Shown: one piece after another, positions 36,551 through 59,443 of the stretch | How the letters are laid out: each line of letters starts with the position of its first letter | How positions within the stretch are numbered: the first letter of the stretch is position 1 | Translations under genes and position numbers: made by a program | Source: an uncultured Thermoleophilia bacterium | GTDB taxonomy: Bacteria; Actinomycetota; Thermoleophilia; UBA2241 | Length of the DNA: 64,000 nt | Direction of reading: 5' to 3' | Assembly (NCBI GenBank): GCA_963699725.1 | Contig: CAVOVA010000027.1 | Location: forward strand, 170,066-234,065 | Notes under the pieces: model-generated | What the model was told of the DNA's origin: nothing | Databases searched by the model: none | What the model saw: the letters and a program-made list of their open reading frames with translations, nothing else

Positions 36551-36578
36551 CGTCTCCCCCTACTCCGTCGCCGGCCCG

Positions 36579-37847: not shown

Positions 37848-38370
37848 CTGGGCTCCTTTCGGCCGGATGAGAAGAGGCGGACGGCGACGGGCCCGCGAGC
37901 GGTCGGCGGTTCCGAATCGTCAGCCTGAAGATTCACGGTAGGCGGGTGCGACGGCCCGGTCTCACCCCGGGTCTGGCCAGAGTCGGCTGTACATGAGGAG
38001 GATGGTCACGCTGGGCTCCCTCCCGAGCCGGTGGGCTCTCGGGCGACGTCCGCCTCGAGCCCGCGAGCCGGCAGCGGCGTCCGTCCCCGAGCCCGCCGCC
38101 AGAGCGTACCGGATACGCCGCGCCTTGGCATCCCCCACGCGTTCGCGCGCGGAACAAGCCGGGCCCGACCTCTCGCCAGGATGTCCCGCCGCGGTCCAGC
38201 AGCGAGCGCGTGCCCAGCCCCAGCCCAGCCGGACTCGATCGCTGATGCCTCCTGTGTTCGGGCACCGGTGCGCGAACGTGTCCGGGCCCGCGTGTGGACT
38301 CCGTGCGGCGGATCGAGCACCCCGGATAGCCGACTGCGGGTCCGCCGTGGCGCACCCGGCCCGCGGTCAC

Positions 38371-39285
38371 TCAAGGCGCAAGCTCCAGCGACGTCGCGCC
38401 CTCTTCCTCGTGCTCGCCGAGCAGCACTACCAGCAGACCGGCGATGACGATGAGGGCGCCGCCGATCACCGTCCAGATCGAGATCCCCTGGCCGAGAAGA
38501 AGCAGCGCGTACAGCGGCGCCGAGACCGGCTCGAGGTAGCCAAGGATGGAGCTGTGCTGGACCTTGATCAGGCCCATGCCGTGCGTCCACATCAGGTAGG
38601 CGACCGCCGTGCACAGGACGCCGAGCGTGACACCGGCGACCAGATCGCGGGCGGTGAGGTGGTAGCCGGCGGCGACCGTCTGCCACAGCGCCAGCGGCAG
38701 GAGGATGAGCGTGTCGAGCCAGACCTCGGTGAAGACGATAGTCACTGCGGAGACGCGCCTGGTGAGGTCCTTGACCACGAGCTGGAAGGCGGCGTAGCCA
38801 AAGCCTGCGAGGATGCCCGCCGTGACTCCCCAGGCGGAGAGCCGGACGCCCTCGCCGAGCAGAGGCGGCGTCAGGATCACGGCCAGTCCGACGAGGGCGA
38901 TCGCCAGCGCGGGGTAGACGATGCCCTCGGTCCGGGTGCGAAACACGCGCGGCGCGATCAGCGCCACCCAGACCGGCGCGAGGAACTGCAGGAACATGCC
39001 GATGGCGACGCTGGTCCCGCGGATGGCGGCGAAGAAGAGCAGGAGCATGAAGGCGTCGATCGCGGCCATCAGCAGGAGGCGCGGCCAGACAGAACGGGCG
39101 GCGACACCGGCGAGCGGCCGGCGGCGGGCGAAGACCACGCCGAGCACGAGTCCTGCCGTCGCAAACCGCAAGACCAGCAGGGCGCTCTCCGGCGCCGGCG
39201 CCCATTCCACGAGAGCGCCGATGAGCCCCATGATGAGGAAGGAGCCCGCGACGAGCAGGTAGCCGCGCACGGCGCGACTCTTCAT
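38371..39285 (-). CDS. EamA/DMT family transporter (6th of tandem array)
   Basis: About 10 TM helices, VQHSSILGYLEPV. Confidence 0.88.
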   Translation of the reverse strand: MKSRAVRGYLLVAGSFLIMGLIGALVEWAPAPESALLVLRFATAGLVLGVVFARRRPLAGVAARSVWPRLLLMAAIDAFMLLLFFAAIRGTSVAIGMFLQFLAPVWVALIAPRVFRTRTEGIVYPALAIALVGLAVILTPPLLGEGVRLSAWGVTAGILAGFGYAAFQLVVKDLTRRVSAVTIVFTEVWLDTLILLPLALWQTVAAGYHLTARDLVAGVTLGVLCTAVAYLMWTHGMGLIKVQHSSILGYLEPVSAPLYALLLLGQGISIWTVIGGALIVIAGLLVVLLGEHEEEGATSLELAP

Positions 39286-46082: not shown

Positions 46083-47378
46083 TCAGACCTTGACCGGCCC
46101 GAAGATGTCGGCCATGCGGTTCTTGCGGTCGACCACCTTCTGCATGCGTGCGTCCCACACCTCGCTGAGCGTCGGGCCGTGGCTCTCGTCGAACATCCCG
46201 GCCACGCCGAGGCGCTCGCGATCGGGCTCGCAGTCCTCGCAATGACACTGGCCCTCGACGTAGTCGTCGGGCTCCGTGTACTTGCTGATCACGCCCTCGT
46301 AGTTGCGCAGGATGATCTTGCCCGGCGCCTGGCTGATGACGTAGTTGGGGAACACCGGCGTCTTCCCGCCGCCGCCGATGGCGTCGATGATGTAGGTGGG
46401 CACGCCGAAGCCGGTGGTGTGACCACGCAGGCTCTCGTAGATCTCGATGCCCTTGGCGACGCTGGTGCGGAAGTGCGCCGTGCCCTGGGCGAGGTCGCAC
46501 TGGTAGTAGTAGTAGGGCTTGACGCGATACTCGAGCAGCCGGTGGGAGAGCTTCTTCATCACCGCGGCGCAGTCGTTGATGCCGCGCAGCAGCACCGTCT
46601 GGTTGCCCATGGGGATGCCGGCGTCGTTCAGGCGATCGCAGGCGAGCTTGCTCTCGGGGGTGAACTCCTGCGGGTGGTTGAAGTGGGTGTTGAAGTACAG
46701 CGGCTGGTACTTGCTCAGCATCGCCACGAGCTCGGGGGTGATGCGCTGCGGGCAGACGACCGGCATGCGCGAGCCGATGCGGATGATCTCCACGTGGTCG
46801 ATCGCGTGCACGCGCTCGAGGATGCTCTCGAGCTGCCCGTCGGAGAGCACCAGCGGGTCGCCGCCGCTGATCAGTACGTCGCGGACCTCGGTGGCGCGCT
46901 CGAGGTACTCGATGGCGTGGTCGATCTCGGCCCGGGCGACGATGTCCTCGGTGCCGCCGACCAGGCGGCGGCGCGTGCAGTGGCGGCAGTACATGCTGCA
47001 CATCTCGGTGACCACGAAGAGCACCCGGTCCGGGTAGCGGTGGGTGATGCGCGGCGTCGGCGAGTCGAAGTCCTCGGAGACGGCGTCCTCGAGGTCTTCG
47101 GCGTGGAACACGAGCTCGGGCGGCGTCGGCACGCCCTGCATGCGCACCGGGTCAGTGGGGTCGTCCGGGTCCATGAGCGACGCGTAGTAGGGCGTGACGG
47201 ACACGCGGAACTTGCCCATGCAGGCGTCGAGGTCACGGCGCTGCGGCTCGGTGAGGTTGAGCACGCCGGCGAAGTCGTCGGTGGTGGTGAGGCGGTTGCG
47301 GAGCTGCCAGCGGTAGTCGTCCCAGTCGGCGTCGCTGACGTCTCTGAAGCGCGGTATGTCCTTGCGGTCTCTGATCAT
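46083..47378 (-). CDS. kamA: Lysine 2,3-aminomutase (radical SAM, PLP)
   Basis: HRYPDRVL, CSMYCRHCTRRR, SGGDPL, HFNHP.E, YYYQCD, GGGGK, C-terminal CHCEDC. Confidence 0.9.
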   Translation of the reverse strand: MIRDRKDIPRFRDVSDADWDDYRWQLRNRLTTTDDFAGVLNLTEPQRRDLDACMGKFRVSVTPYYASLMDPDDPTDPVRMQGVPTPPELVFHAEDLEDAVSEDFDSPTPRITHRYPDRVLFVVTEMCSMYCRHCTRRRLVGGTEDIVARAEIDHAIEYLERATEVRDVLISGGDPLVLSDGQLESILERVHAIDHVEIIRIGSRMPVVCPQRITPELVAMLSKYQPLYFNTHFNHPQEFTPESKLACDRLNDAGIPMGNQTVLLRGINDCAAVMKKLSHRLLEYRVKPYYYYQCDLAQGTAHFRTSVAKGIEIYESLRGHTTGFGVPTYIIDAIGGGGKTPVFPNYVISQAPGKIILRNYEGVISKYTEPDDYVEGQCHCEDCEPDRERLGVAGMFDESHGPTLSEVWDARMQKVVDRKNRMADIFGPVKV

Positions 47379-47501
47379 CGAGCTGCTCCTTCTCCGCGAG
47401 GCCCCTGACCCTCACGGCTCATTCCTTCACTGGCGACGGCGGACTGAAGCGCCGGCGTTGATGCCCTGGTGCCCGCGCCGATGCACGGGTGCGTACGCAT
47501 G

Positions 47502-48905
47502 TTACAGCCCCGACTCGGCGACGATACGCTGGAGCGTGCCGCGGACCTCGTCGCCGAGCGGCACGGCGGTGTGTTCGGCGACGAGCCGGCCCGCGAGGAT
47601 GGTCGCCTTCGCGTAGGCGCCCTCCCGGCCGGAGGCGATCCACGCGTCCCACATGCTGCGGTCGAGCAGACGCGGACGCCACACGTCTTTCATGTGCCGG
47701 CGCGTGTGGCGCTGGCCAAGGTAGTTGCCGCCGATGCCTACCTGATTGATCGCGTCGAGGGCGATGGTCTCGTCCTCGACCTCGATGCCGGAGGCGATCC
47801 TCGCGTTCCAGCTGAAGATCTCGGAGTCCATGACCAGCTGCTGTGGGCTGAACGCGTCGCCGGCGCCGAGGGTACCGGCTCCGCTGGTCACGTCGGCGCC
47901 CGCGGCGGTCGTGCTGAGCGTGGCGAAGGCGCCTTGGGTGCAGGCCTGCCAATCGGGCTCGTGGCTCACGGTACGCTGACCGCCGGCGACGACCGGCAGG
48001 CCCACCAGGGCCGCGAGCTGAGCGGCGGCGAGCAGGAATAGCGCGGCCGACGGGCCCGCGGCCGGCAAGCCGGCGGCGGCGGGGTCGGCGGCGTAGAAGA
48101 ACGGCGCGCCGGGGGCCGCGGCCTGTACGGCCGCGCACCCGGCGAGCACGCCGGCGTGGTGACGGATCAGGGCGGCGCCGAGGCCGGCGGCAATCGGTGC
48201 GCCCGCATCGTCCCCTGGCGATTTGACCAGTCCGACTGGCAGGCCGGCGCAGGCGAAGGCGAGCGCCGCATCCAGCGCGTCGGCGCCGCCGCAGAGCGAG
48301 AGCGGCGGGCGGCTGCGGGCGGCTGCGGCCGAGCCGGCGACGGCCGCGGTCATCGCGACGGCCGCGTCGGCTTCGGCGGCCGACGTCAGGCCCGAGGCCA
48401 TCACATGCTTGCTGGTGCCGGTCAGGCAGCGCGCGAGCTCGCCGAGCGGAGTCTCGCCGGCAGCGTGCACCGGCGGACCCGCGACGACGGCCACCTCGGG
48501 CAGCGCGTCGGCGAGGCGTACGGCAGCGTCGAGGTCTGCTGCGGTCGCCGGGACGGGGTCGTCGCCGGCGAGCGGGCGTACCCGCGAGGGCACGCCGGCG
48601 GGGCCGGCGGTCGCGATCCCGGCGGCCAGCCAGATCCGACCGGCACCGACGCGCACATCGTGCTCCGGCGCGCGCCCGGCGAGCACGAAGCTTGGGGGCG
48701 CCGACTGAGCCGCGGCCTCGGCCGCGGCGGCCTCGGCGCCGAGCAGCTCGAGCGCGGCCGCGTGCACGCGCGCCACGTCGTCATCGCTCAGCACGCGCAG
48801 GGCGAGGCGCGCTCGGGTCGTCAGGATGGAGCGCGCCCGCGGCAGCGCCTGCGGCGCGCCGCCGGCGGCGCCCGCCGCACTCGCGACGTTCGACGGCTCG
48901 GTCAC
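47502..48905 (-). CDS. Divergent, Ala-rich MttB-superfamily protein #5
   Basis: RVH.AALE, LADALP, EPDWQA, QLVMD.E, YLGQRHTR; internal deletions. Confidence 0.72.
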   Translation of the reverse strand: MTEPSNVASAAGAAGGAPQALPRARSILTTRARLALRVLSDDDVARVHAAALELLGAEAAAAEAAAQSAPPSFVLAGRAPEHDVRVGAGRIWLAAGIATAGPAGVPSRVRPLAGDDPVPATAADLDAAVRLADALPEVAVVAGPPVHAAGETPLGELARCLTGTSKHVMASGLTSAAEADAAVAMTAAVAGSAAAARSRPPLSLCGGADALDAALAFACAGLPVGLVKSPGDDAGAPIAAGLGAALIRHHAGVLAGCAAVQAAAPGAPFFYAADPAAAGLPAAGPSAALFLLAAAQLAALVGLPVVAGGQRTVSHEPDWQACTQGAFATLSTTAAGADVTSGAGTLGAGDAFSPQQLVMDSEIFSWNARIASGIEVEDETIALDAINQVGIGGNYLGQRHTRRHMKDVWRPRLLDRSMWDAWIASGREGAYAKATILAGRLVAEHTAVPLGDEVRGTLQRIVAESGL

Positions 48906-50338
48906 CTTCTGCTCCCCTCTGCCTCGGCAAGCACAGCCTGCAGCCGGTCGCGGATCGAGTCTTCAAGTGCGAACGCGCGCGGCTCGTCGCGCAGCTCCTG
49001 CGTGCGCGCGGCCACGCGCTCCCTGAGCGTGGTCGCCCCGGCGGCGGCCCAGCGGTCGTGCGTCGCGCGGTCGAAGAGGCGCGGCGCCCACGTCTCGCGG
49101 TGGTGCTGACGCGTGTAGCCCCGGCCAAGGTGACTGCCGCCTGGACCGACGGCGTCGATCTCATTGAGCGCCAGCGCCTCGTCGTCGACGCCCACCTCGA
49201 CCAGCAGCGCGCGGGCATAGCTCACCAGCTCGTCACCGAGGACCACCGTCTGGTAGCTGCTCTGCATGCCGCTCTCGAGGTAGCCGACGTCGTGGAGCAG
49301 CGTGGCGCGGCTGAGCGCGCCGAGCACCGCCGTGATGCCGGCCTCGGCGGCCCACTGCTCGTCGAACGTCTTGGCGTCGGCGACGGCGGCGTAGGCGAAG
49401 CTCGGCAGCCCGTAGAAGCGGGCCAGGTCCGTTGCCGCGGCGTTGCCGAGGAAGTGCTCGGGCGCGCCGTACACGTCGACGGCGGTGCGCATGTCGAACG
49501 CACCGCAGCCGACACCGTACACAAAGGGCGCCCCTGGCCGTGTCAGCTGGTGGACGACCAGGCCGCTCAGCGTCTCGGCGTTGCCGATCACGATGGTCGC
49601 GGTCATCGAGGCCGGCGCCGTGGTGCCGGCGGCCGGCGCCGGCGCGTAGATCAGCGGGACATCGAGCTCGGCGCAGGCGCAGACCTTGTCGAGCGCCTCG
49701 TCGCTGTGGATCAACGGCGGGTTGGGCATCGCGTAGCAGCCGAAGCTGCGCGCCTCGCCGCACATGGCGGCCATGTCCTTCATGCGGCGCAGGGACACGG
49801 CGTCGTGCGCCGTCGTCAGCAGCGGCTTGCGCGTGCCGGCCAGCATGGCGGCGAACTGGGCCAGGTCGCCGATCTCCGCCGCCACGTCGCTCGGCAGTCC
49901 CATGCTCATGACGAAGTCGAGGTTGGGGAGCTTCTCCGCGAGTGCGGCCATTCCCTCGACGTCGGCGGTCGTGCTCCGCCGGCGCTCGCCGCTGTCGGGG
50001 TCGGTGACGTAGACGCAATCCGACCCCGTGCCGAAGTAGCTGTTACCGTCCTCGAGTTCGAGACCGCCGAGCTCACCGCGGCGCGCGTGGCCCTCGCCGC
50101 CGGACGCGCCGCGCTCCCTGAGCTTGAAGTGGCGCGGCGCGCTCTGCAGGGCGGCGTCGACCAGTGTGGCCGGGATGCGGGCGCGCGTCCCTTCGACGCA
50201 CGCGCCAGCCTGCGCCAGTTGCTCGCGGGCGCGGGCGTGACGGACCTCCACGCCGGTCTCCTCGAGCAGCGCGAGTGTCGCCTCGTGGACGCGCCAGCAG
50301 GCGGCGTCGTCCCACACGGTGAGGCGGGCGGCGGGCAT
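48902..50338 (-). CDS. MttB-superfamily methyltransferase (non-Pyl) #6
   Basis: YFGTGSDC, LDFVMSMGLP, GTTAPAS, LLHDVGYLE. Confidence 0.9.
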   Translation of the reverse strand: MPAARLTVWDDAACWRVHEATLALLEETGVEVRHARAREQLAQAGACVEGTRARIPATLVDAALQSAPRHFKLRERGASGGEGHARRGELGGLELEDGNSYFGTGSDCVYVTDPDSGERRRSTTADVEGMAALAEKLPNLDFVMSMGLPSDVAAEIGDLAQFAAMLAGTRKPLLTTAHDAVSLRRMKDMAAMCGEARSFGCYAMPNPPLIHSDEALDKVCACAELDVPLIYAPAPAAGTTAPASMTATIVIGNAETLSGLVVHQLTRPGAPFVYGVGCGAFDMRTAVDVYGAPEHFLGNAAATDLARFYGLPSFAYAAVADAKTFDEQWAAEAGITAVLGALSRATLLHDVGYLESGMQSSYQTVVLGDELVSYARALLVEVGVDDEALALNEIDAVGPGGSHLGRGYTRQHHRETWAPRLFDRATHDRWAAAGATTLRERVAARTQELRDEPRAFALEDSIRDRLQAVLAEAEGSRR

Positions 50339-50400
50339 CAGCGAATCCTGGCGGTCACGGGCGTCCTCGAGGCGGTCATCTGCGCTTCTGGCCGGGGCCG

Positions 50401-51867
50401 TCAGGCCCCCGCCAGCTCCTTGTCGGCGCGCGCGACGATCGCGCGCAGCTCGTTTGCGACGTCCTCCGAGAGCGGCTCGGGCTGATAGCTCGCCAGGATG
50501 TCGTCGGCGATCTCCGTGGCCTTCTCCAAGGCGCCCTTCTTGCCCTCCCGCAGCCAGTTGTCGTACGGCGTGCGGTCCCACACGGTCGGGCGCCAGATCT
50601 CCTTCATGTGCTGCCGGGTGTGCTTCTGGGCGAGGTAGGTGCCGTTCGGCCCGACCTTCTTGATCAGGTCGAGCGCCAGCGTCTCGTCATCGACCACGAT
50701 GCCGCCGGCAACCTTCTGGATGATGCCGTAGATCTCGATCTCCATCACCATGTGCGGGTAGCTGAGGATCTTGGAGCCGTTGAGCAGGCCGGCGCCGTTC
50801 ATCATATCGGCGCTGGTCATCACACTGGCGAAGGTGCTGAGCGAGTCGTCGATCGCGGCCTGCCAGTCGGGCTCCTTGGCCCCGGTGGCCATGGTGCCCA
50901 TCGCCATCGGCACGCCGTAGAAGTGAGCGAGCTGGGTGGACGCGCCTGCAAGGAGGTAGTCCTCGGGCGAGCCGCCGGTGTACCCGCCGGTCTTGAGGTC
51001 GATCACGCTCGGAGCGCCGGCGAAGAAGGCCGGCACGCCCGGGTAGGCCAGCTCGAGGAGGACGACGCCGCTGAGCGCCTCGGCGTTCTGGACGACGAGA
51101 TTGCCGGCCAGCGTCGCCGGGCCGGTCCCGGCCGCGAGCGGCATAGGCATGAAGCCGCTGGCCAGCCCATGCTCGGCGGCTACGAGGTTGGCCTCGAGGT
51201 TGGGACCGTCGTGCGCCAGCGGGTCCACTGCACACTGCATGAAGCTGAGTATCGGACGCTCGCGCAACGCATCCGTTCCGCCGGCGATCGTGGCCGCCAT
51301 CTCGACCAGGTAGCGGGCGGGCTTCTCGCCGACCGTGGTCACCGTCTGGAAGTGCTTGCTGGTGTTGGTGAACACGGCCTCGGCGTCGTGCAGCGCCTTG
51401 GTCGCGGGAGGAACGTCCTGACTGGTGACCACAGGGCCCCAGTAATAGCTGATGCTGGGCAGCGCGTCGACGAAGCGAGCGCTGGTCGCCGCGTCGGCCT
51501 TGGTACTCGGCCGCTTCTCGCCCTTCTTGTGGTCCCAGACGAAGACGCCGGAGCCGTCGTTGCTGAGGTAGCTGTGCTTGCCGTCGACGAGCATGTCGCA
51601 GGCGGGGTCGCGGCCGGCGAGCACGTAGCTGTCCGGCACCTGCGAGACGGCCTCCATGACGACCGCGCGAGGGAGCTTGGCGACCTGCGTCGCGCGGTCG
51701 ATCTCACACCCGTTCTGCTCGAGGACGTCGAGGGCGCGTTCGCTCGGGAACCGGATGCCGACCGTCTCGAGGACGTCGAGCGTGGCCTCGTGAATGCGCT
51801 CGAGCTCGCTTGGGTTGAGCACGTCCCACCTGAGACGGGGGGCGATGGGATTGATTCGGGTGGTCAT
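50401..51867 (-). CDS. MttB-superfamily methyltransferase (non-Pyl) #7
   Basis: NTSKH, GTGPATLAG, DL.TG, EPDWQA, VGP.G.YL. Confidence 0.9.
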   Translation of the reverse strand: MTTRINPIAPRLRWDVLNPSELERIHEATLDVLETVGIRFPSERALDVLEQNGCEIDRATQVAKLPRAVVMEAVSQVPDSYVLAGRDPACDMLVDGKHSYLSNDGSGVFVWDHKKGEKRPSTKADAATSARFVDALPSISYYWGPVVTSQDVPPATKALHDAEAVFTNTSKHFQTVTTVGEKPARYLVEMAATIAGGTDALRERPILSFMQCAVDPLAHDGPNLEANLVAAEHGLASGFMPMPLAAGTGPATLAGNLVVQNAEALSGVVLLELAYPGVPAFFAGAPSVIDLKTGGYTGGSPEDYLLAGASTQLAHFYGVPMAMGTMATGAKEPDWQAAIDDSLSTFASVMTSADMMNGAGLLNGSKILSYPHMVMEIEIYGIIQKVAGGIVVDDETLALDLIKKVGPNGTYLAQKHTRQHMKEIWRPTVWDRTPYDNWLREGKKGALEKATEIADDILASYQPEPLSEDVANELRAIVARADKELAGA

Positions 51868-52038
51868 TGCGGCAGCCTCGAAGGGGTCCGACGACGGCGG
51901 GTCAGGTTGGAGCCGGCAGCGGGCGGGCAGTCGCGGTGTTGCTCAGGAGGAGCCCGTCCGCGGAAGCGGAGGGCCTAGAGACCGCAGGCGCGGTTGATCG
52001 TGCTGATGCTGATGCTGGGAACGGCGGGCACGGGTCGG

Positions 52039-52150: not shown

Positions 52151-52732
52151 TCAGCTCGGGTCGAGGCCGAGCCGCTCGGCCATCGAGCGCCCGAGCGCCC
52201 GGGCCTGGGCCATGAGCTCCGCGTCATCCGCCGCCGACCCGGGCTTGTCGGCACACCCGCCGAGGGCCACCACGGGCAGCTCTTCGGGGTTCGACAGCGC
52301 CACGAAGCGGCGCATGGCCGCCAAGGTGTCGTCCGCGCTGGACTCCGCGGCGACGGCGATCAGGCCCACGACTTTCGGGGCCAGCCACTCCTCGTGGTAG
52401 TAGCGGGTGGCGTTGCGGTCCATGAACGTCTTCATCTGCCCCGAGACGTTCTCGTAGTAGATCGGCGTCGCAAGGATGAGGCCGTCGGCCGCGTACACTT
52501 GCTCGAGGACGCCGGGCATGTCGTCGTCGTGGGGGCAGGACTGCCGCTCGCCGCAGTTCTCGTGGCCGTCGCAGGCGTTGATGCGCACCTCGGAGAGCAC
52601 GATCCGCGTGCAGTCGCAGCCGCTGAGCTGGAGCTCCTCGAGGGCGGCGTCGACCAAGGTCGCGGTATTGCCGCCTCGCCTGGGGCTGCCGATCACGGCG
52701 ACGACCTTCAGACGGGCTTCAGGAGCGCTCAT
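52151..52732 (-). CDS. Iron-sulfur flavoprotein / flavodoxin family
   Basis: GSPRRGGNT, C..H..C.....C...DDM, TP.Y...VSGQMK.F.DR; RBS GGAGG. Confidence 0.85.
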   Translation of the reverse strand: MSAPEARLKVVAVIGSPRRGGNTATLVDAALEELQLSGCDCTRIVLSEVRINACDGHENCGERQSCPHDDDMPGVLEQVYAADGLILATPIYYENVSGQMKTFMDRNATRYYHEEWLAPKVVGLIAVAAESSADDTLAAMRRFVALSNPEELPVVALGGCADKPGSAADDAELMAQARALGRSMAERLGLDPS

Positions 52733-52782
52733 GTCAATGCCTCCGGATGTAGGTGACGTGGCTTGGACGACGTGGCTCCGGC

Positions 52783-54195
52783 CTAGTCTGTCAGACCGGC
52801 GTGATCGCGAAAGCGCTGGACGCAGTTTATCGGCAGGTCGAGCAGCTCCGCGATCCTGAACTTGGCCTCCATGGCGCTGGACTGGGTGGGGTAGCTGATC
52901 TCGAAGGTCGTGATGCGCCCCAGCTGCCGCTCCCTGCGCACGTCTTCCATTGCGATGGGGTCGGAGAGATCGAAGGGACTGACTCCGAGACGCTCTGCAA
53001 CGTACGCCTTGGCATCGCCGATCCGCATCCCCCGAGTGATCTGCATGCGCGCCACCAGATCTCCAGCAGCGCGCATCCCGCACATCCCCGAGGCGGTCGC
53101 GTGGGCACACGGCATCCCGAGAGGGTCGCCGCCGCCGACCTACAAGCCGTCCAGCCGCAGGATGTCGACGGTGGCTCGCGAGGCGCGCGCGACCGCATCC
53201 AGCGGCAGGTAGCTGGTGATGGGGACGGCGCCGACGCCCATGCCGATGTTCATGTGCACGGGGATCTCGGCCACTTCCATGCACGGCTTGACCACCGTCA
53301 GCGCGCGCGCGATGTTCCACGCCCCCGAGCGGCGCGTGTTCACGGTGACGGCCGGCCCGTAGATGGTCGCTCCTGCCCGGCGAACGAGCTCCATCTGCCC
53401 ACGGGGCCAGAGGCCGGCCAGGCGTACGCCGTCGTACTCGAGCCGGCCGTGCATCCCGAGGACGAACTCGCCGGCCATGCCGACCTGGATGCCCATGTCG
53501 GGGTGGGCCGCCCGGATCCGCTCGATGGCGAGAAGGGTGGCCAGGAAATCGCCGTCTCCGGCGGCGCCGGCGGTGTCGAAATCGATGCCGTCGGCGCCGG
53601 CCTCCCACAAGGCGTCGGCGGTCTTCACCATGTCCTCGACAGCGTGCCCTACCGCCTCTTCCTGGGCCGCCCGCGCCTCGTCCACGCGCGCCAGCGGGAG
53701 CAGCTCCGACCAGTTGGGCGCCGGACCGTCGGGCCTCGAGTACAGCCCCAGGTTGGGCATCGCCCCGTACATCACCGGCACCGTCAGGACCGCCTGCGCG
53801 TCTTTCATGCTCTGGGCTTCGAACGGCAGGATCGTCCGGATGGCCTTGAACGAGTAGTCGACGTGCCCGAGCTCCACAGAGTCGGCGCCGAACATCTGCT
53901 CGTAGATGAGCAGGTCCTGGGTGCGCGTCCCGACCGTCTTGGAGCCGGAGCCGTCGTACGTGAGCACGACCTCGTCGCCGATGTCGACGGCGGAGAACTT
54001 GGCCGGCGACGCCCAGATCTCCAGGAGGTGATCGAGCTCGTCCTCGGCCAGCGGCGGCACCTTGGCTCGGCCCGCGGCCGCCAGGGTGCCCTCCTCGAGC
54101 TCGGCGCGGAGCTCGCTCCGGGTCATCCGCGTGAGCGAACCATCGCCCATGCGGGTGGGGTAGTGCGTCTCCATCTTGCGGCTCTCCCTCGTCAC
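52783..54195 (-). CDS. mtbB: Dimethylamine:corrinoid methyltransferase with in-frame amber (pyrrolysine) at 53140-53142
   Basis: TRMGDG N-terminus, GAMPNLGLY..PDGP, FDT.GAAGDGD; ...LRLDGL[TAG]VGGGDPLGMP..H..ASGM.G.RAAGDLVARMQ continues in frame to 52783. Confidence 0.9.
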
Positions 54196-55631
54196 TGGGT
54201 AGTAGCGCCCGCGGCGCGCGCGTAGCGCTCGAACGTGCCGCGCGCCTCGCGGCGGGCATCGTCGGGAATCGGTGTGGGCACGTGCGCGGCGAGCACGGCT
54301 TCGGCGCGCTCCAGCGCGTCGCTCACGAGAGACCGCCCAGCGAACTCGGACAGGCTCCCGCGCTGGAAGACCGACGGACGCCAGATCTCGCCGCGGCGTG
54401 AGCCCTCGCGGGAGCTCCGCCGACCGAGGAAGTGGCCTCCGGGGCCTACCGCGGCGATGTCGTCGAGCAGCGTCGACGCGTCGTCCACCGCCGGCAACCG
54501 GAGGAGCCGGCGCAGGGACCCGATGGTGTCACAGTCGAGCATGACCTTGGCGGTCGAGATGGCCTGGACCGAGTCCACGAGCCCGACGGCCACGAGCATG
54601 TCGGCCCCGGCGAGGACGGTCGCCATTCCGGTGATGGCGCCCTCGGCGCCGGCCTGGAAGTTGGCCGCCTTGGCATCCGAACTGATCCCCGAGCCCATGC
54701 TGGGGAGCCCGAGGTGCTTGCTCATGGAGAGGCACACCATGTCGAGCAGCGCGACCTCCGGGGCCCCGCACAGGTAGCCGCCGGTGCGCAGGTCGGTCGC
54801 GCCACCGGTGGCTGCGACCGTCAACGCGCAGCCGGGCACCGCGGTCTGGAAGATGACGATCCCGGCGAGGAACTCCGCGATCCCGGTCACGGCCGAGCCC
54901 AGGATGCTCATCGGACTGGTCGATCCCATCAGCGGCAGCGGATGGACGTTGATCGACACCCCATGACGCGCCAGCTCGATCGCGGCGTCGAGCTTGTCGC
55001 TCTCGAACTGCAGCGGCGACACGGGGCAGTGCAGGGAGGAGTAGATGGGTCGCTCGGAGAGCGGCGCGCCCGCGATGGCCTCGAGCATCTCCAGCAGTGG
55101 CGGCACCTGCTCCGGCGAGTGCGCGACGATGCTCTGGACGTGCTTCGAGGTCGACTCCAGGGCGATCAGGTCGGTCTCGAGGCCGCCCGTGAGATCGTCG
55201 AAGCGGGGGTTCGTGAGCGTTGTCCAGACGAAGTCGATCTCGGACAGGGCGTCGAAGAGGCCGAAGTAGTACTCGAGATCGGCTTGGGTGGCCCCGCGCA
55301 CCTCGCCGGTCGCGTCGTCCATGACCATCGTCGCCATGCCGTCGGTGGTGCAGGCGAGCGGCGAGCCGTCGCCGACGACGAGGTCGCGCGCCGGGTCGCG
55401 CCCGGCCATGCGGATCTGGCGCGGCGTCTGTGCGAGGCAGCTCTCCACAAGCGCCGGCGGAAGCTTGGCGACCCGGCGCTCCCGGTGGACCTCCGCCCCC
55501 GCCGCGGCGAGCAGGCGAAGGACGCTCTCCGAGCCGACACCCACGCCAATGTGCTCGAGGACGTGCAGCACGCGCTGGTACAGCGCGTCCTTCTCGGCCG
55601 CCGAGAGGCAGTCGACCCGCGGCGCGGTCAC
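54192..55631 (-). CDS. MttB-superfamily methyltransferase (non-Pyl) #8
   Basis: TSKH, CPVSPL, GSTSP, GAPE, SSDAK...QAG.E; GTGA overlaps at both ends. Confidence 0.88.
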   Translation of the reverse strand: MTAPRVDCLSAAEKDALYQRVLHVLEHIGVGVGSESVLRLLAAAGAEVHRERRVAKLPPALVESCLAQTPRQIRMAGRDPARDLVVGDGSPLACTTDGMATMVMDDATGEVRGATQADLEYYFGLFDALSEIDFVWTTLTNPRFDDLTGGLETDLIALESTSKHVQSIVAHSPEQVPPLLEMLEAIAGAPLSERPIYSSLHCPVSPLQFESDKLDAAIELARHGVSINVHPLPLMGSTSPMSILGSAVTGIAEFLAGIVIFQTAVPGCALTVAATGGATDLRTGGYLCGAPEVALLDMVCLSMSKHLGLPSMGSGISSDAKAANFQAGAEGAITGMATVLAGADMLVAVGLVDSVQAISTAKVMLDCDTIGSLRRLLRLPAVDDASTLLDDIAAVGPGGHFLGRRSSREGSRRGEIWRPSVFQRGSLSEFAGRSLVSDALERAEAVLAAHVPTPIPDDARREARGTFERYARAAGATTQ

Positions 55632-57100
55632 TCCCGCGCCGCCGCGTCGCGGTCCGCCGCGTCGACGATGGCGCGGATCTCGCGCACCACGTCGTCCGGC
55701 AGCGGCTCCGGCATGTGCGTGGCGAGAATGCGGCGCGCCTCCTCCAGCGAGCGCTGATGCAGATCCTTGCCGCCCGCGGCGGCCCAGTCCTCTCGCACCC
55801 TGCGGTCGATCAGCTTGGGCTGGGACTGACAGCGCATGAACTTGAGCGTGGAGTCCAGGCTGAGGAAGTCCCCGAAGGGGCCCACCTGAGCGATGTCGTC
55901 CACGCCGAGCAACTCGTCGTCCATCGGGACGCCCCCGACCGCGTGCTTGATCATCCGAGCGAACTCGTTGTCCATGACGAGCTGGCCGAAATCGAACGCG
56001 ACACCCGACTCGATCATCCCCGCGCCGTAGATCAGGTTGGCACCTGCCAACGCCGGCAGCAGCGCGGTCAGCGTCTTCTCGTGACCGGTCTGAGCGTCGA
56101 AGAGCTTGGAGTCGCCCTACAACCCGGCGACGTAGCTCGGCAGGCGATACCGCCGCGCGATGGCGGCGACGGCGGCGCTGATCACGCCGCACTCCGGCGA
56201 GCCGACAGAGGCGGCGGCGAGGCGCAGGTCCATGGCCGTCGTCGAGCTGCCGTAGAGCACCGGAGCGCCGGGACTGGCGAGCTGCGCGAGCGTGATCCCG
56301 GCCAGCACCTCGGCGTTGTGGACGACGAGGGTGCCGGCGAGGTTGACGGGGGCCGACCCGCCCGACATCGCCATCGAGAGGACCAGACAGGGTACGCCGG
56401 CCCGGGCGGCCGAGACGATGGCCTCGGAACACTCCTTCGGCAGCCGCAGCGGGCTGACGGGGCAGACGCCGATCATCACGATCGGGCGCCGCCGCAAGGC
56501 CTCCCGGCCGCCCACCGCGGCGGCGGCGATGTCGAGGATCACCTCCGTCTCCCACCTGGAGAGTGGACCGGCGCAGATGTGCTTGGAGGTGTTGAGCACC
56601 GCCGCCTCGTAGCTGTGGATCGTCGCCGTCGCGGTGGGCATGTCGTGGGCTCCGACGGCGATCTCGTAGGCGTCCAGCTCATCCAGGTAGTCGGCCAGTC
56701 GCGCGGTGTCGGCGACGTCCTGCTTGGTCGGCTCGCGCATCTCGCCGGTCTCGAGGTCGGCGATCTTCAGGCCCTCGCCGAACGTGGTGAAGCCGACGCG
56801 ACCGGCGTCGAGCATGATGTCGTCCCTGGGGCTGCGGCCGGCGGCGAAGACGCGCTCCGGTGACGAATCGATGGCCGCCTCGACCAGCCGGGGCGGGATC
56901 CTCACTACGCCGGTCGCACGATCGACGATCGCGCCCCCGGCCTCGAAGATGTCCGTCGCCTCACGGTCGTCGGAGAACACGCCGGTCTGCTCGAGGACCT
57001 CCAACGTGGCGAGGTGCAGGTCCCTGAACTCGTCCTCGGTGAAGGCATTCAGGCTGAAGCCTCCACTGCGCGTTCGCCCTGAATGGGCACGTCGTTTCAA
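55628..57100 (-). CDS. mttB: Trimethylamine:corrinoid methyltransferase with in-frame amber (pyrrolysine) at 56117-56119
   Basis: ...LPSYVAGL[TAG]GDSKLFDAQTGHEKTLTALLPALAGANLIYGAGM... continuous frame; TTG start after GGAGGAGG. Confidence 0.92.
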
Positions 57101-57891: not shown

Positions 57892-59304
57892 TCAGACTCC
57901 CGGCCGCCCGACCTCCACCTCCGCGAGGATCCGATCGAGGCCGGCCTTCACGTCGTCGGGCAGCTCGAAGGCGCGCGGCGGGGAGCGCAGCTCGGAGACC
58001 CGCGCCCGCAGGCGGTCGAGCAGCGTCTGCGATCCATCGGTCTCCCATGCGTCGTGACGGGTCGTGTCGAAGAGGTCGCTCTGCCAGATCTGGCGGAAGT
58101 GCCCGCGCGTGTAGGTCCGGGCCAGGTGACTTCCGCCCGGCCCCACCGCCTTGATCTCGGCCAGCGCCAGCGCCTCATCGTCCACGGCCAGCGGCGCCAT
58201 GAACGCCTTCGCCCAGCCGAGCAGGTGGTCGCCGAGGACGATCGACTCGTAGCTGCTCTGGAGGCCGCACTCGAGGTAGCCGACGTCGTGCAGCAGCGTC
58301 CCTCGCGAGAGCTTGCCGAGTATCGCCGTGAGCGCGGTCTCGGCGCTCCACTGTTCGTCCAGCACCTTGCTGTCCGTATGCGCCGCGTAGGCGAAGCTGG
58401 GAAGGTCATACCAGCGCGCGAGGTCGGTCTGGGCCTGATGGCCGCGGAAGACGTCGGCGGACGAGTACACCTCGTTCATCGTACGCATGTTCATGGCGCC
58501 GACGCCGACGCCCCAGACGAAGGGCGCGCCGGGCCTCGCGGCCTGGCTGAGCACGAGCCCGGCGAGCACCTCGGCGTTGGCAATCACGATCACCGAAGCG
58601 ATGCTCGCCGGCGCCGTGGTGCCGGCGTTCGGCGCCGGCGCCCAGATGAGCGGGACGCCGAGCCCGGCGCAGGCGACGACCTTGCTGGCGCCGTCCTCGT
58701 CGAAGAGCAACGGCGGCACCGGCATCGCGTAGATGGCGAAGCTGTCGGCCTCGCCGGCCAGCGCCGCCATCTCCTGCATCCTGCCGAGGACGTGGCCGTC
58801 ACGCGGGGCGACGAGGAGGGGCTTGCGCGTGCCGCGCAGCATGGCGTCGACCTGGACGAGGTCGTCGATCGCCTGTGGGGCGTCCTCGGGCAGGCCCATG
58901 CTCATCACGAAGTCGATGTTGGGCAGTACCTCGCAGAGCGCGGCCATGCCCTCGACGTCGGCGCGGCGCACGCGGCGGCGCTCGCCGCTCTCGGGATCGC
59001 GCACGTAGAGGCAGTCCGAGCCGGTGCCGCAGTAGCTGTGGGCGGCGTCGAGCACGAGCGGCTCGGAGTCGCCGCCGCGCGGCTTGATGGTCCAGTCGCG
59101 CGGCGCGGTCTCGAGGGCGGCCTCGACCAGCCCGGCGGGGATGCGCACGCGCGTCCCGTCCACCTGAGCGCCGGCCTTGGCGAAGAGCTCGGCGGCGGGC
59201 GCGTACCTGACCTCGATGCCGGTCTCGGCGAGCACCTCCAAGGTCGCCTCGTGGACGCGCCGGCAGGCGTCCTCGTCCCAGATCGTCAGGCGAGCTGCGT
59301 TCAT
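57892..59304 (-). CDS. MttB-superfamily methyltransferase (non-Pyl) #10
   Basis: Close paralog of #6: ARLT.WD..AC.RVHEATL, GTGSDC, LLHDVGYLE; RBS AAGGAGG. Confidence 0.9.
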   Translation of the reverse strand: MNAARLTIWDEDACRRVHEATLEVLAETGIEVRYAPAAELFAKAGAQVDGTRVRIPAGLVEAALETAPRDWTIKPRGGDSEPLVLDAAHSYCGTGSDCLYVRDPESGERRRVRRADVEGMAALCEVLPNIDFVMSMGLPEDAPQAIDDLVQVDAMLRGTRKPLLVAPRDGHVLGRMQEMAALAGEADSFAIYAMPVPPLLFDEDGASKVVACAGLGVPLIWAPAPNAGTTAPASIASVIVIANAEVLAGLVLSQAARPGAPFVWGVGVGAMNMRTMNEVYSSADVFRGHQAQTDLARWYDLPSFAYAAHTDSKVLDEQWSAETALTAILGKLSRGTLLHDVGYLECGLQSSYESIVLGDHLLGWAKAFMAPLAVDDEALALAEIKAVGPGGSHLARTYTRGHFRQIWQSDLFDTTRHDAWETDGSQTLLDRLRARVSELRSPPRAFELPDDVKAGLDRILAEVEVGRPGV

Positions 59305-59430
59305 GTCGCCCCCCTCCTTCGCTGTCGTGATGGCGGGCCTGCCGTGGCAGACCGAGTGGCGCTCGGCGATGGCGCCGCGCTCTCGTCGCACGGCCGGACG
59401 GGCCGCAGCCGTCGGCTCGAGCGGGCCGTG

Positions 59431-59443
59431 ACTCTACCACCGG
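59431..59443 (-). promoter_or_regulatory. Putative extended -10 promoter upstream of mttB #10
   Basis: CCGGTGGTAGAGT, 12/13 identical to the element at 52039-52051. Confidence 0.4.

What the first reader, a model, noticed from the sequence alone, without database searches (positions are those of the whole stretch)
52783..54195. Pyrrolysine-type dimethylamine methyltransferase split by an amber codon
Seen: ORFs 53140-54195 and 52783-53115 are in one frame joined by a single TAG (codon 352): LRLDGL*VGGGDPLGMP. Established: archaeal MtbB has Pyl in the matching DG-x-O-x-G-x-GDP context near residue 356. A second independent amber at the right place makes sequencing error or pseudogenisation unlikely.
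Basis: partly seen in the sequence, partly recalled or inferred. Interest (0 to 1): 0.85.

Follow-up and report, generated by a model that had tools for sequence, protein, structure and literature searches.

The report
Pyrrolysine dimethylamine methyltransferase gene, actinobacterial
This is a real gene for a dimethylamine methyltransferase whose internal TAG "stop" is almost certainly read as the 22nd amino acid pyrrolysine, in an uncultured high-GC actinobacterium that carries the full pyrrolysine machinery; it is a known kind of gene in a lineage where it has barely been described.

Summary
Window 52783-54195 (minus strand) is one reading frame with a single TAG at 53142-53140. Read through, it is a full-length MtbB: PF09505 at 7e-168, and TIGR02368 at 458 bits against a cut-off of 369.

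- **The TAG sits at the family's pyrrolysine (Pyl) codon.**
  - Rfam PYLIS_2 (RF02509, "Pyrrolysine insertion sequence mtbB") starts with UAG. It aligns end to end from this TAG at 78 bits against a gathering score of 36.
  - Among 14 control genomes the model hits only Methanosarcina acetivorans.
- **The TAG is conserved.** All 10 mtbB paralogues in the genome and 79 of 79 related loci keep it at the same column.
- **The machinery is present.** Contig C1 of the same genome holds pylB, pylC, pylD, tRNA-Pyl(CUA), pylSn and pylSc.
- **A hairpin follows the UAG.** It lies +67 to +98 from the UAG and covaries at synonymous sites.

Close relatives are Thermoleophilia MAGs. Papers already note Pyl genes in Actinobacteria (PMC9630628, PMC10805028).

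Verdict: a genuine new member of a known kind. I could not align it directly to a Methanosarcina protein, and there is no peptide evidence.

The parts
52783..54174 (-). mtbB coding sequence, from the likely ATG start to its terminal TAG at 52785-52783. An alternative GTG start at 54195 overlaps the TGA of the upstream gene.
   Evidence: frame. (PF09505 7e-168; TIGR02368 458 bits, cut-off 369). (ATG 54174 and the GTGA overlap). (homologues mostly 344 aa).
53140..53142 (-). In-frame TAG, the proposed pyrrolysine codon. It is codon 352 counted from the GTG and 345 from the ATG.
   Evidence: Aligned TAG in 79 of 79 loci and 10 of 10 paralogues. Positions 1-3 of RF02509.
53043..53142 (-). PYLIS_2 element (Rfam RF02509, 'Pyrrolysine insertion sequence mtbB'): the 100 nt starting at the UAG.
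   Evidence: 78.1 bits, gathering 36, E 1.9e-19, model 1-100 of 100; all 10 own mtbB copies score over the cut-off; the control hits only M. acetivorans.
53045..53076 (-). Conserved RNA hairpin inside PYLIS_2. It has 14 pairs in the window copy, a core at 53048-53073, and the loop AGAU. It lies +67 to +98 from the U of the UAG.
   Evidence: z -3.5. (three third-codon-position pairs covary). (90% of cells paired against 82.4% in shuffles, 0 of 500 as high; 32-42% when slid). (ranks 2, 4 and 6 of 528 column pairs). (the only strong consensus structure in the gene).
54184..54190 (-). Shine-Dalgarno-like GAGGGAG, with 9 nt between it and ATG 54174.
   Evidence: Read directly from the sequence.
52729..52782 (-). 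The 17 sense codons and TGA that follow the terminal TAG in frame. The TGA overlaps the ATG (52732-52730) of the next gene.
   Evidence: A possible read-through extension; inferred only.
52151..52732 (-). Downstream gene for an FMN reductase or flavodoxin-like protein.
   Evidence: PF03358, 1.4e-26. Start read.
54192..55634 (-). Upstream gene, an MttB-family methyltransferase without an in-frame TAG.
   Evidence: PF06253, 1.6e-64.
   Evidence: PF06253, 1.5e-87. (its TAG aligns with chain residue 334 of 7xcm). (named Pyl334 in PMC9842639).
44236..46062 (-). RACo/RamA-type reductive activase of corrinoid proteins, on the same strand in the same cluster.
   Evidence: RACo_C_ter 8.5e-78, Raco_middle, RACo_linker, Fer2.
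47502..51942 (-). Three further MttB-family genes without TAG (47505-48962, 48905-50686, 50404-51942).
   Evidence: PF06253 at 2.3e-47, 7.6e-74 and 2.8e-97.

Best explanation
The locus is a functional mtbB gene. It encodes a dimethylamine:corrinoid-protein Co-methyltransferase with a TIM-barrel fold.

**Proposed decoding.**
- The ribosome does not stop at UAG 53142-53140.
- tRNA-Pyl(CUA) inserts pyrrolysine there.
- The bacterial split synthetase PylSn plus PylSc charges that tRNA.
- PylB, PylC and PylD make pyrrolysine from lysine.
- All six genes lie together on contig C1 of the same genome.
- The 100 nt after the UAG form the known mtbB PYLIS_2 element. Its 3' hairpin is kept by compensatory synonymous changes and may favour read-through over termination.

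**Proposed chemistry.**
- In the enzyme, Pyl lies in the last barrel strand.
- By analogy with MtmB and MttB, its imine binds the methylamine and activates a methyl group for transfer to a Co(I) corrinoid protein.
- A RACo/RamA-type activase encoded 7 kb away would keep that corrinoid reduced.
- A second methyltransferase would then pass the methyl group into one-carbon metabolism. The genome has acetyl-CoA synthase.

**Shown here:** the gene, the frame, the family, conservation of the TAG, the PYLIS_2 match, the covariation, and the presence of the pyl genes.

**Inferred:** actual Pyl insertion, dimethylamine as the substrate of this particular paralogue, any role of the hairpin, and where the methyl group goes.
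For: **Family.** PF09505 matches residues 11-464 of 470 at 7e-168. The TIGR02368 equivalog scores 458.3 bits against a cut-off of 369.1. In 14 control genomes this model hits only M. acetivorans.

**Position of the TAG.**
- RF02509 model positions 1-3 (UAG) align to it, over the full length, at 78.1 bits against 36.
- 10 of 10 own paralogues, 45-64% identical to the window copy, each have exactly one TAG at the same column.
- 79 of 79 loci from genome contigs have it too.
- In five near-complete relatives, all 35 matches that span the site have one TAG.
- None of the 120 best database homologues covers more than 75% of the query, and most are 344 aa. They are gene calls cut at the TAG.
- By my count, 22 of 150 cluster representatives end exactly at residue 351.

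**The downstream part is coding.** Mean identity is 0.62 after the TAG and 0.64 before it, with many invariant residues after it.

**Machinery on contig C1.**

| Gene | Coordinates on C1 | Score | Cut-off |
|---|---|---|---|
| pylB | 148839-149837 | 443 bits | 348 |
| pylC | 149887-151026 | 339 bits summed | 248 |
| pylD | 151122-151907 | 203 bits | 150 |
| tRNA-Pyl (cta) | 151964-152036 | ARAGORN call | - |
| pylSn | 153172-153432 | 128 bits | 51 |
| pylSc | 156335-157060 | 321 bits | 178 |

The tRNA folds as a cloverleaf with a 5-nt D loop.

**Not a binning artefact.** In 4 of 5 relatives with few contigs, PylSc and a TAG-bearing mtbB lie on one contig. PylSc exceeds its cut-off in 32 of 36 genomes of the same family.

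**Hairpin.**

**Structure.** The AlphaFold2 model has pLDDT 86 and pTM 0.89, with an alternating strand-helix pattern. Residue 352 lies in strand 350-354. Foldseek finds TIM barrels.

**Context.** A RACo activase and six MttB-family genes lie on the same strand. CdhC/acetyl-CoA synthase is at C21.

**Sequence seen elsewhere.** Contigs from three RNA libraries bridge the TAG. One is identical to the window over 53046-53178 (records 10, 17 and 25).
Against: - There is no peptide or activity evidence. Pyl insertion is inferred.
- I could not make a direct protein alignment to a named Methanosarcina MtbB. PDB has no MtbB chain, the listing of cluster members was off, and Paul et al. 2000 is not held. 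The link to archaeal mtbB rests on the curated models TIGR02368 and RF02509 and their control hits.
- No corrinoid-protein gene lies in the window (13 in the genome, the nearest about 11 kb before the window's start). This copy therefore lacks the classic mtbB-mtbC pairing.
- With 10 paralogues, dimethylamine is not assured as the substrate of this copy.
- TAG is not avoided as a terminator. It ends about 23% of 1616 crude ORFs, and it ends this gene too. Decoding must therefore be ambiguous or regulated, and the full-length yield is unknown.
- Rfam's tRNA model did not match the tRNA-Pyl. Only ARAGORN calls it.
- The genome is a MAG, 87% complete with 4.7% contamination.
- RNA-library contigs can carry DNA.
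- No MtrH-type methyltransferase was found.
Confidence: 0.9

Rival explanations
1. The gene is real and uses Pyl, but this paralogue no longer acts on dimethylamine. It has diverged to another methylated amine. In this reading the ten MtbB lineages of the genome are a substrate-diversified enzyme family.
For: - There are ten paralogues, 45-64% identical to the window copy.
- Six of them, including the window copy, have orthologues at 90-97% identity in other MAGs but are at most 67% identical to any own paralogue. The lineages are therefore old and kept apart.
- Residues just after Pyl differ between lineages: VGGGDPLGM, VGSGDPHGM, IGAGDNHSQ.
- The window copy sits among non-Pyl MttB-family genes rather than beside a corrinoid partner.
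Against: - It scores above the equivalog cut-off of TIGR02368.
- Isozymes with one substrate are known: a review reports three mtbB genes encoding DMA methyltransferase isozymes in M. barkeri (PMC2933860, passages).
- No biochemical data exist either way.
Confidence: 0.2
2. The UAG mostly terminates translation. The cell makes a 344-residue N-terminal fragment, perhaps with a separate C-terminal peptide from ATG 53115, and the full-length protein is rare or absent. In effect this is a split or decaying gene.
For: - TAG is a common terminator in this genome (about 23% of crude ORFs).
- An ATG-started ORF exists at 52783-53115.
- Gene callers split every homologue at this point.
Against: - The most conserved stretch (V-G-x-G-D, with invariant G356 and D357) lies between the TAG and that ATG, so neither piece would contain it.
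- The TAG itself is invariant in 79 of 79 plus 10 of 10 copies, although these are only 45-97% identical. A decaying gene would not keep one exact stop codon and an intact downstream frame.
- The barrel's last strand spans the TAG.
- Dedicated Pyl machinery is present.
Confidence: 0.03
3. The UAG is read through, but by a near-cognate or suppressor tRNA that inserts a standard amino acid (Gln, Lys, Trp or Tyr) rather than pyrrolysine.
For: - A few database translations carry W, L, Q or S at this column (P0128, P0144, P0182, P0227).
- P0128 is a full-length 463-aa homologue with W there.
Against: - The genome has a complete pylBCD-pylT-pylSn-pylSc set, and PylSc is found across the family (32 of 36 genomes).
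- ARAGORN found no other CUA-anticodon tRNA in the 28 contigs.
- If a sense residue worked, some of the 89 copies would have a sense codon there. None does.
- The letters may come from other translation tables or noisy assemblies. Several of those rows are visibly frameshifted.
Confidence: 0.03
4. The TAG is an assembly or sequencing error in this MAG.
For: The genome is a metagenome-assembled draft (87% complete, 4.7% contamination).
Against: - The same TAG occurs in 79 of 79 independent assemblies and in all 10 paralogues.
- One run's contig is identical to the window across 53046-53178 (record 10).
Confidence: 0.005

Closest known systems
MtbB, dimethylamine:corrinoid methyltransferase of Methanosarcina (TIGR02368 / PF09505)
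   Same: - Full-length match above the equivalog cut-off.
- A single in-frame UAG, followed by the family's PYLIS_2 element.
- x-G-x-G-D-P-x-G-M context after Pyl.
- TIM-barrel model.
   Different: - The host is a bacterium with 69% G+C, and its closest relatives are Thermoleophilia MAGs. It is not a methanogen.
- There are ten copies, against the three mtbB isozyme genes reported for M. barkeri (PMC2933860).
- No adjacent mtbC.
- The pyl system is the split pylSn plus pylSc type.
- The methyl acceptor downstream is unlikely to be coenzyme M. No MtrH was found, and acetyl-CoA synthase is present. This point is inferred.
PYLIS_2 (Rfam RF02509), the mtbB UAG-downstream RNA element
   Same: - 100 of 100 model positions match at 78 bits.
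- Both model hairpins are present.
- The 3' hairpin is the one that covaries here.
   Different: - The window copy extends the 3' stem to 14 pairs.
- The element's function is untested in any bacterium.
- The 5' hairpin is only 64% paired across the 77 sequences.
Bacterial Pyl systems of Desulfitobacterium, Acetohalobium and Deltaproteobacteria
   Same: - Split pylSn and pylSc, with pylBCD and pylT clustered.
- They co-occur with TAG-bearing methylamine methyltransferase genes, corrinoid proteins and RamA homologues. PMC2933860 (passages) describes this pattern for bacteria.
   Different: - The gene order here is pylB-pylC-pylD-pylT-pylSn, then 3 kb further on an inverted pylSc.
- A 2014 paper described mtbB as almost exclusive to Methanosarcinales (PMC3941956). 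Here it is the most expanded Pyl gene.
Actinobacteriota MAGs of Stordalen Mire reported to express Pyl-encoding mttB and mtbB (PMC10805028)
   Same: - Same phylum and the same two gene types.
- One related locus (L054, 61% identical) comes from the MAG 'bog_752', and that paper names a genus Bog-752.
   Different: In the passages I read, that paper judged Pyl genes by truncation only. Those passages report no pyl machinery, paralogue counts or PYLIS. I did not see its supplements.

Membership tests
MtbB (TIGR02368 dimeth_PyL / PF09505) | Full-length sequence match above the curated equivalog cut-off | tested here: met
   458.3 bits against 369.1, covering 8-464 of 470. PF09505 at 7e-168; the control hits only M. 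acetivorans.
MtbB (TIGR02368 dimeth_PyL / PF09505) | A single in-frame UAG at the family's pyrrolysine position | tested here: met
   the UAG at positions 1-3 of RF02509 aligns to 53142-53140; the same column is TAG in 10 of 10, 79 of 79 and 35 of 35 spanning matches. I could not align it directly to a named archaeal protein.
MtbB (TIGR02368 dimeth_PyL / PF09505) | Pyl is actually present in the protein | not testable with these tools
   Needs mass spectrometry or a crystal structure.
MtbB (TIGR02368 dimeth_PyL / PF09505) | Methylates a cognate corrinoid protein (MtbC) with dimethylamine | not testable with these tools
   Needs an enzyme assay. Thirteen corrinoid-protein genes are in the genome.
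MtbB (TIGR02368 dimeth_PyL / PF09505) | Adjacent gene for the cognate corrinoid protein (mtbBC arrangement) | tested here: not met
   no B12-binding protein gene in the window. Another paralogue (C12:103134-104501) is followed by one at C12:104595-105221.
PYLIS_2 (Rfam RF02509) | Covariance-model score at or above the gathering score | tested here: met
   78.1 bits against 36; 10 of 10 own copies over the cut-off.
PYLIS_2 (Rfam RF02509) | Base pairs supported by compensatory change | tested here: met
   The 3' hairpin is supported. The 5' hairpin is weak, with 64% of cells paired.
PYLIS_2 (Rfam RF02509) | Promotes Pyl insertion at the UAG | not testable with these tools
   Needs reporter assays with synonymous stem mutations.
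Bacterial pyrrolysine system | pylB, pylC and pylD present | tested here: met
   each over its NCBIfam cut-off. The three genes are contiguous on C1.
Bacterial pyrrolysine system | Synthetase split into pylSn and pylSc | tested here: met
   separate genes on opposite strands, 3 kb apart.
Bacterial pyrrolysine system | tRNA with a CUA anticodon and the compact tRNA-Pyl shape | tested here: met
   ARAGORN reports tRNA-Pyl (cta) directly after pylD; cloverleaf with a 5-nt D loop and a short variable region. That these are hallmarks of tRNA-Pyl is my recollection. Rfam's general tRNA model gave no match.

The most novel reading that the evidence does not exclude
In this Thermoleophilia family, MtbB has radiated into about ten old paralogue lineages. 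Every one keeps the Pyl codon and the PYLIS_2 hairpin.

The boldest reading the evidence does not exclude has two parts. First, these are Pyl enzymes with different substrates, covering a range of secondary or other methylated amines and not only dimethylamine. Second, these non-methanogenic actinobacteria, which carry acetyl-CoA synthase, are a major methylamine sink in soil and sediment and compete with methylotrophic methanogens. That would make the lineage the richest known natural set of Pyl enzymes outside archaea.
Probability: 0.25. Interest if true: 0.65.

Novelty: new member of a known kind. Interest (0 to 1): 0.45.

Why it matters
Pyrrolysine decoding is known mainly from methanogens, a few Firmicutes and Deltaproteobacteria.

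**What print already says about Actinobacteria.**
- A 2022 survey counted two Actinobacteria among PylRS-encoding genomes (PMC9630628, passages).
- A 2023 peat study noted in one sentence that some Actinobacteriota MAGs express Pyl-encoding mttB and mtbB (PMC10805028, passages).
- Only one paper held both 'pyrrolysine' and 'Thermoleophilia', and by its title and abstract start it concerns serpentine soil geochemistry and microbiology (listing only).

**What this window adds.**
- A Thermoleophilia-type genome has the whole system.
- It has 10 mtbB, one TAG-bearing mtmB, and about nine close mttB relatives. I checked the TAG in only one of those mttB copies, the window's.
- The trait is family-wide: PylSc is present in 32 of 36 sampled genomes of the family.
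- The mtbB PYLIS_2 hairpin is under RNA-level selection in bacteria.

**Practical consequence.** Standard gene callers cut all these genes in two. Methylamine use by these soil and sediment bacteria is therefore systematically under-annotated.

Tried and rejected
- **Direct alignment to a Methanosarcina MtbB protein.** It could not be made.
  - PDB has no MtbB chain at E up to 1.
  - The listing of cluster members, meant to name distant representatives, was switched off.
  - Paul et al. 2000 (PMC111316) is not held.
  - The 79 loci returned by genome contigs were all bacterial MAGs.
  - I used the curated models TIGR02368 and RF02509 and their control genomes instead.
- **AOR-ferredoxin pair next to pylB.** An in-frame TAG joins an aldehyde:ferredoxin oxidoreductase ORF and a ferredoxin ORF (L003 1265-3667). 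I considered it as another Pyl gene. I rejected it because the AFOR_C match ends at residue 624 of about 630, and the ferredoxin has its own ATG five codons after the TAG.
- **Helices next to the UAG.** In the window's minimum-free-energy fold, A4 columns 3-6/45-48 are only 39% paired across relatives and columns 7-20/25-39 only 64%. Only the 3' stem-loop is well supported.
- **Foldseek against PDB.** It gave only generic TIM barrels (PriA/HisA, IMPDH, BHMT) at TM 0.30-0.37. No residue-level mapping of Pyl was possible.
- **Rfam tRNA model on the tRNA-Pyl region.** No match.
- **MtrH (PF02007).** No match in a genome that is 87% complete. This is not evidence of absence.
- **Representatives that run across the TAG column.** Several are visibly frameshifted. 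I could not determine where their W, L, Q or S letters come from.
- **RNA-library contigs.** They bridge the TAG, but such libraries can hold DNA and contigs give no expression level. I treat this as weak support only. Runs with small word shares that I did not lay (X22-X24) are not used. Parts of the gene without cover in X20 and X21 mean nothing.
- **Stop-codon usage.** It rests on a crude ORF filter (at least 150 aa, GC3 at least 0.85, GC2 at most 0.56, 1616 ORFs). The filter includes the N-terminal pieces of the Pyl genes themselves.
- **Supplements.** Supplementary files of the papers were not opened. Those of PMC10805028 and PMC3639795 (Additional file 2, Figure 4) may already hold the MAG list and the mtbB structure.
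Full report
**1. The observation**

- Translating window 52783-54195 on the minus strand gives one frame of 470 codons. It has a single internal stop after LRLDGL and before VGGGDPLGMP, plus a final stop.
- The internal stop is TAG at 53142-53140, and the final stop is also TAG, at 52785-52783.
- The window is 67-73% G+C, so long spurious ORFs abound on both strands. The mtbB frame nevertheless shows the codon-position pattern of real genes here: GC3 of 0.82-0.86 and GC2 of 0.50-0.54.
- The likely start is ATG 54174, with 9 nt between it and GAGGGAG (54190-54184). A GTG at 54195 overlaps the TGA of the upstream gene and cannot be excluded.
- Most of the 120 best database homologues are 344 aa. 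That is the length from this ATG to the TAG.

**2. What the gene is**

- Read through with TAG=O, the product (P0001) matches Pfam Dimeth_Pyl over residues 11-464 at 7e-168.
- It matches the NCBIfam equivalog TIGR02368, [dimethylamine--corrinoid protein] Co-methyltransferase, at 458 bits against a cut-off of 369.
- In 14 named control genomes that model hits only Methanosarcina acetivorans.
- No solved structure shares detectable sequence similarity.
- An AlphaFold2 model built on 31 aligned read-through sequences has pLDDT 86 and pTM 0.89. It shows the alternating strand-helix pattern of a TIM barrel, with residue 352 inside strand 350-354.
- Foldseek against PDB returns only generic TIM barrels.

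**3. Does the TAG stand where pyrrolysine stands?**

I could not fetch a named archaeal MtbB protein. Four independent lines answer the question instead.

- **(a) The Rfam match.**
  - Rfam holds a family for exactly this element: RF02509, PYLIS_2, 'Pyrrolysine insertion sequence mtbB'.
  - Its consensus begins with UAG.
  - The window matches all 100 model positions starting at the TAG, at 78.1 bits against a gathering score of 36, E 1.9e-19.
  - Among the control genomes the model hits only M. acetivorans.
  - Read as codons (my translation), the consensus after the UAG gives I-G-V-G-D-P-M-G-M. The window has V-G-G-G-D-P-L-G-M.
- **(b) The paralogues.** The genome holds ten mtbB paralogues, 45-64% identical to this one. 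Each is over the TIGR02368 cut-off, and each has exactly one TAG at the same alignment column.
- **(c) Related loci.**
  - A scan of one genome per prokaryotic species kept 79 distinct loci, 58-96% identical.
  - All 79 have TAG at the aligned codon.
  - In 3 of the 79, another stop lies somewhere in the aligned stretch.
- **(d) Database protein calls.**
  - None of the 120 best hits covers more than 75% of the query.
  - By my count, 22 of the 150 listed 50%-identity cluster representatives end exactly at residue 351.
  - Nine run across that point. Of these, several are visibly frameshifted and four carry W, L, Q or S at the column.

The sequence after the TAG is as conserved as that before it (0.62 against 0.64 mean identity) and holds many invariant residues. 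This excludes a pseudogene and a simple split gene.

**4. The decoding machinery**

The window is C27:170066-234065 of a 3.24-Mb, 28-contig genome that is 87% complete with 4.7% contamination. Contig C1 carries the following, in this order.

| Gene | Coordinates on C1 |
|---|---|
| pylB | 148839-149837 |
| pylC | 149887-151026 |
| pylD | 151122-151907 |
| tRNA with anticodon CUA, which ARAGORN names tRNA-Pyl | 151964-152036 |
| pylSn | 153172-153432 |
| radical SAM gene and a corrinoid-protein gene | between pylSn and pylSc |
| pylSc (opposite strand) | 156335-157060 |

- Every protein model is over its curated cut-off.
- The tRNA folds into a compact cloverleaf with a 5-nt D loop. Rfam's general tRNA model does not see it.
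- The split synthetase marks the bacterial type (PMC2933860, passages).
- Binning is not the explanation. In four of five near-complete relatives with few contigs, PylSc and a TAG-bearing mtbB lie on the same contig.
- PylSc is over its cut-off in 37 of 201 sampled genomes of the class. That is 32 of 36 in the window's own family, 5 of 35 in a second family, and none of the remaining 130.

**5. The RNA element**

- The 113 nt from the UAG fold better than all 200 shuffles (z -3.5).
- On an alignment of 77 sequences, RNAalifold keeps one hairpin, at columns 70-95. Three of its pairs join fourfold-degenerate third codon positions and switch among GC, CG, AU and GU.
- For the 14-pair stem at columns 67-98 (window 53076-53045), the counts are:

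| Measure | Observed | 500 shuffles | 3' side slid |
|---|---|---|---|
| Cells paired | 90% | 82.4 ± 0.6% (0 of 500 as high) | 32-42% |
| Covariation score | 0.205 | 0.080 | - |

- These controls do not remove relatedness. I therefore built a tree of 89 genes and counted changes on it.
  - For pairs 72-93, 75-90 and 78-87, changes on the two sides fall together far more often than for other pairs.
  - They rank 6, 4 and 2 of 528 third-position column pairs.
- All ten own paralogues keep 11-14 of the 14 pairs.
- A sliding RNAalifold scan of the whole 1410-nt gene finds no other consensus structure of comparable strength.
- This hairpin is the 3' stem of the Rfam model, so it is not new. Theil Have et al. 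2013 had proposed a consensus structure for the mtbB region (PMC3639795, section 17 read; the figure was not available to me).
- An outer helix (columns 50-63 with 99-113) is 80% paired. The helices next to the UAG are weak.
- The stem begins 64 nt after the UAG codon. That is too far to touch a ribosome paused on the UAG. Its role in decoding is therefore an inference, and a weak one.

**6. Context and likely physiology**

- The gene sits in a minus-strand block. In window order it holds:
  - a RACo/RamA-type corrinoid activase;
  - a KamA-like radical SAM gene;
  - three MttB-family genes without TAG;
  - an FMN reductase;
  - mtbB;
  - another MttB-family gene without TAG;
  - an mttB with TAG;
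  - a divergent TetR/BetI regulator;
  - one more MttB-family gene.
- The TAG of that mttB aligns with residue 334 of the solved M. barkeri MttB. The authors call that residue Pyl334 (PMC9842639, passages).
- Genome-wide, tblastn gives about 46 MttB-family hits. Nine besides the window copy are 42-60% identical to it, but I did not check whether they carry the TAG.
- There are five MtmB homologues, one with TAG.
- There are 13 corrinoid proteins, none of them in the window.
- There are three URO-D-family candidates for the second methyl transfer.
- An acetyl-CoA synthase is present.
- No MtrH was found.
- On C12, TAG-bearing mtmB and mtbB copies and a close mttB relative are each followed by a corrinoid-protein gene. 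The window copy is therefore an extra paralogue without its own partner.
- TAG is not avoided as a terminator (about 23% of 1616 crude ORFs), and this gene itself ends in TAG. A read-through there would add 17 residues before a TGA that overlaps the next gene's ATG.

**7. Where it comes from and what is in print**

- The closest loci (96% and 95% identical) are from MAGs titled uncultured Thermoleophilia bacterium. Nearly all of the 79 are labelled Thermoleophilia, Actinomycetes or Actinomycetota. One is labelled Dehalococcoidales, one Proteobacteria and one Alphaproteobacteria.
- Contigs from three RNA libraries of different studies bridge the TAG. One is letter-identical over 53046-53178. 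This is weak evidence of transcription.
- In print:
  - Guo et al. 2022 list two Actinobacteria among 81 bacterial PylRS genomes (PMC9630628, passages).
  - Ellenbogen et al. 2023 state that some Actinobacteriota MAGs express Pyl-encoding mttB and mtbB (PMC10805028, passages).
  - Borrel et al. 2014 still described mtbB as almost exclusive to Methanosarcinales (PMC3941956, passages).
- My searches for pyrrolysine with Thermoleophilia, Actinobacteriota or Actinobacteria found nothing more specific. I did not see any supplements.

**8. Verdict**

- It is a new member of a known kind, not a new mechanism.
- Three things go beyond the obvious:
  - the size of the mtbB family (ten old lineages, six of them with 90-97% orthologues in other MAGs);
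  - clear compensatory evolution in the PYLIS_2 hairpin.
- Confidence that this is a functional, Pyl-decoded methylamine methyltransferase gene: about 0.9. Confidence that its substrate is dimethylamine: lower.

Noticed in passing
window 55628-57100 (-), TAG at 56117-56119: An mttB gene with an in-frame TAG. Its TAG aligns with residue 334 of the solved M. barkeri MttB (7xcm), the Pyl334 of PMC9842639.
   Followed up: yes
window 52729-52785 (-): The mtbB gene's own terminator is TAG. In frame, 17 sense codons follow, then a TGA that overlaps the ATG of the FMN-reductase gene (ATGA). In a Pyl-decoding cell this could give a C-terminally extended form.
   Followed up: partly
window 47502-51942, 54192-55634 and 57892-59433 (-): Five MttB-family genes without TAG surround the two Pyl genes. 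tblastn gives about 46 MttB-family hits genome-wide, which is a very large methyltransferase repertoire for 3.2 Mb.
   Followed up: partly
window 46083-47411, 36579-37919 and 35723-36559 (-): A lysine-2,3-aminomutase-like radical SAM gene, a class III aminotransferase and a beta-keto acid cleavage enzyme (BKACE) lie in or near the methyltransferase cluster. They look like lysine or beta-amino-acid catabolism genes. Any link to the methylamine genes is unknown.
   Followed up: no
L003 1265-3667 (+) = G000 C1:145264-147666: An aldehyde:ferredoxin oxidoreductase ORF ends in TAG and is in frame with the next ferredoxin ORF, just upstream of pylB. I judge these to be two genes that happen to share a frame, not a Pyl gene.
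   Followed up: yes
G000 C4:29545-29642 and C21:104561-104652: ARAGORN reports two tRNA-Sec (tca) genes in the same genome. The organism may therefore use both selenocysteine and pyrrolysine.
   Followed up: no
P0128 (463 aa, database representative): A full-length MtbB homologue, 36% identical, has W at the Pyl column and an altered motif. It may be a non-Pyl MtbB relative. No DNA or name was available.
   Followed up: no
A4 columns 79-81 = window 53064-53062 (-): The Gly378 codon is GGA in all 77 aligned sequences (A81 is an invariant column). The genomes otherwise have about 90% G or C at third positions. The A is the first loop base of the hairpin, and GGAG resembles a Shine-Dalgarno site.
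   Followed up: partly
G000 C1:224461-225819, C5:251011-252360, C1:262214-263554, C10:48109-49470: Four MtmB-family genes have no in-frame TAG, beside one with TAG at C12:95593-96945. Each of the four lies next to a corrinoid-protein gene.
   Followed up: no
window 38881-38977 (-): ARAGORN calls a 97-nt tRNA-Glu (ttc), which is unusually long. It lies inside an ORF with EamA transporter domains, so it is possibly a false call.
   Followed up: no
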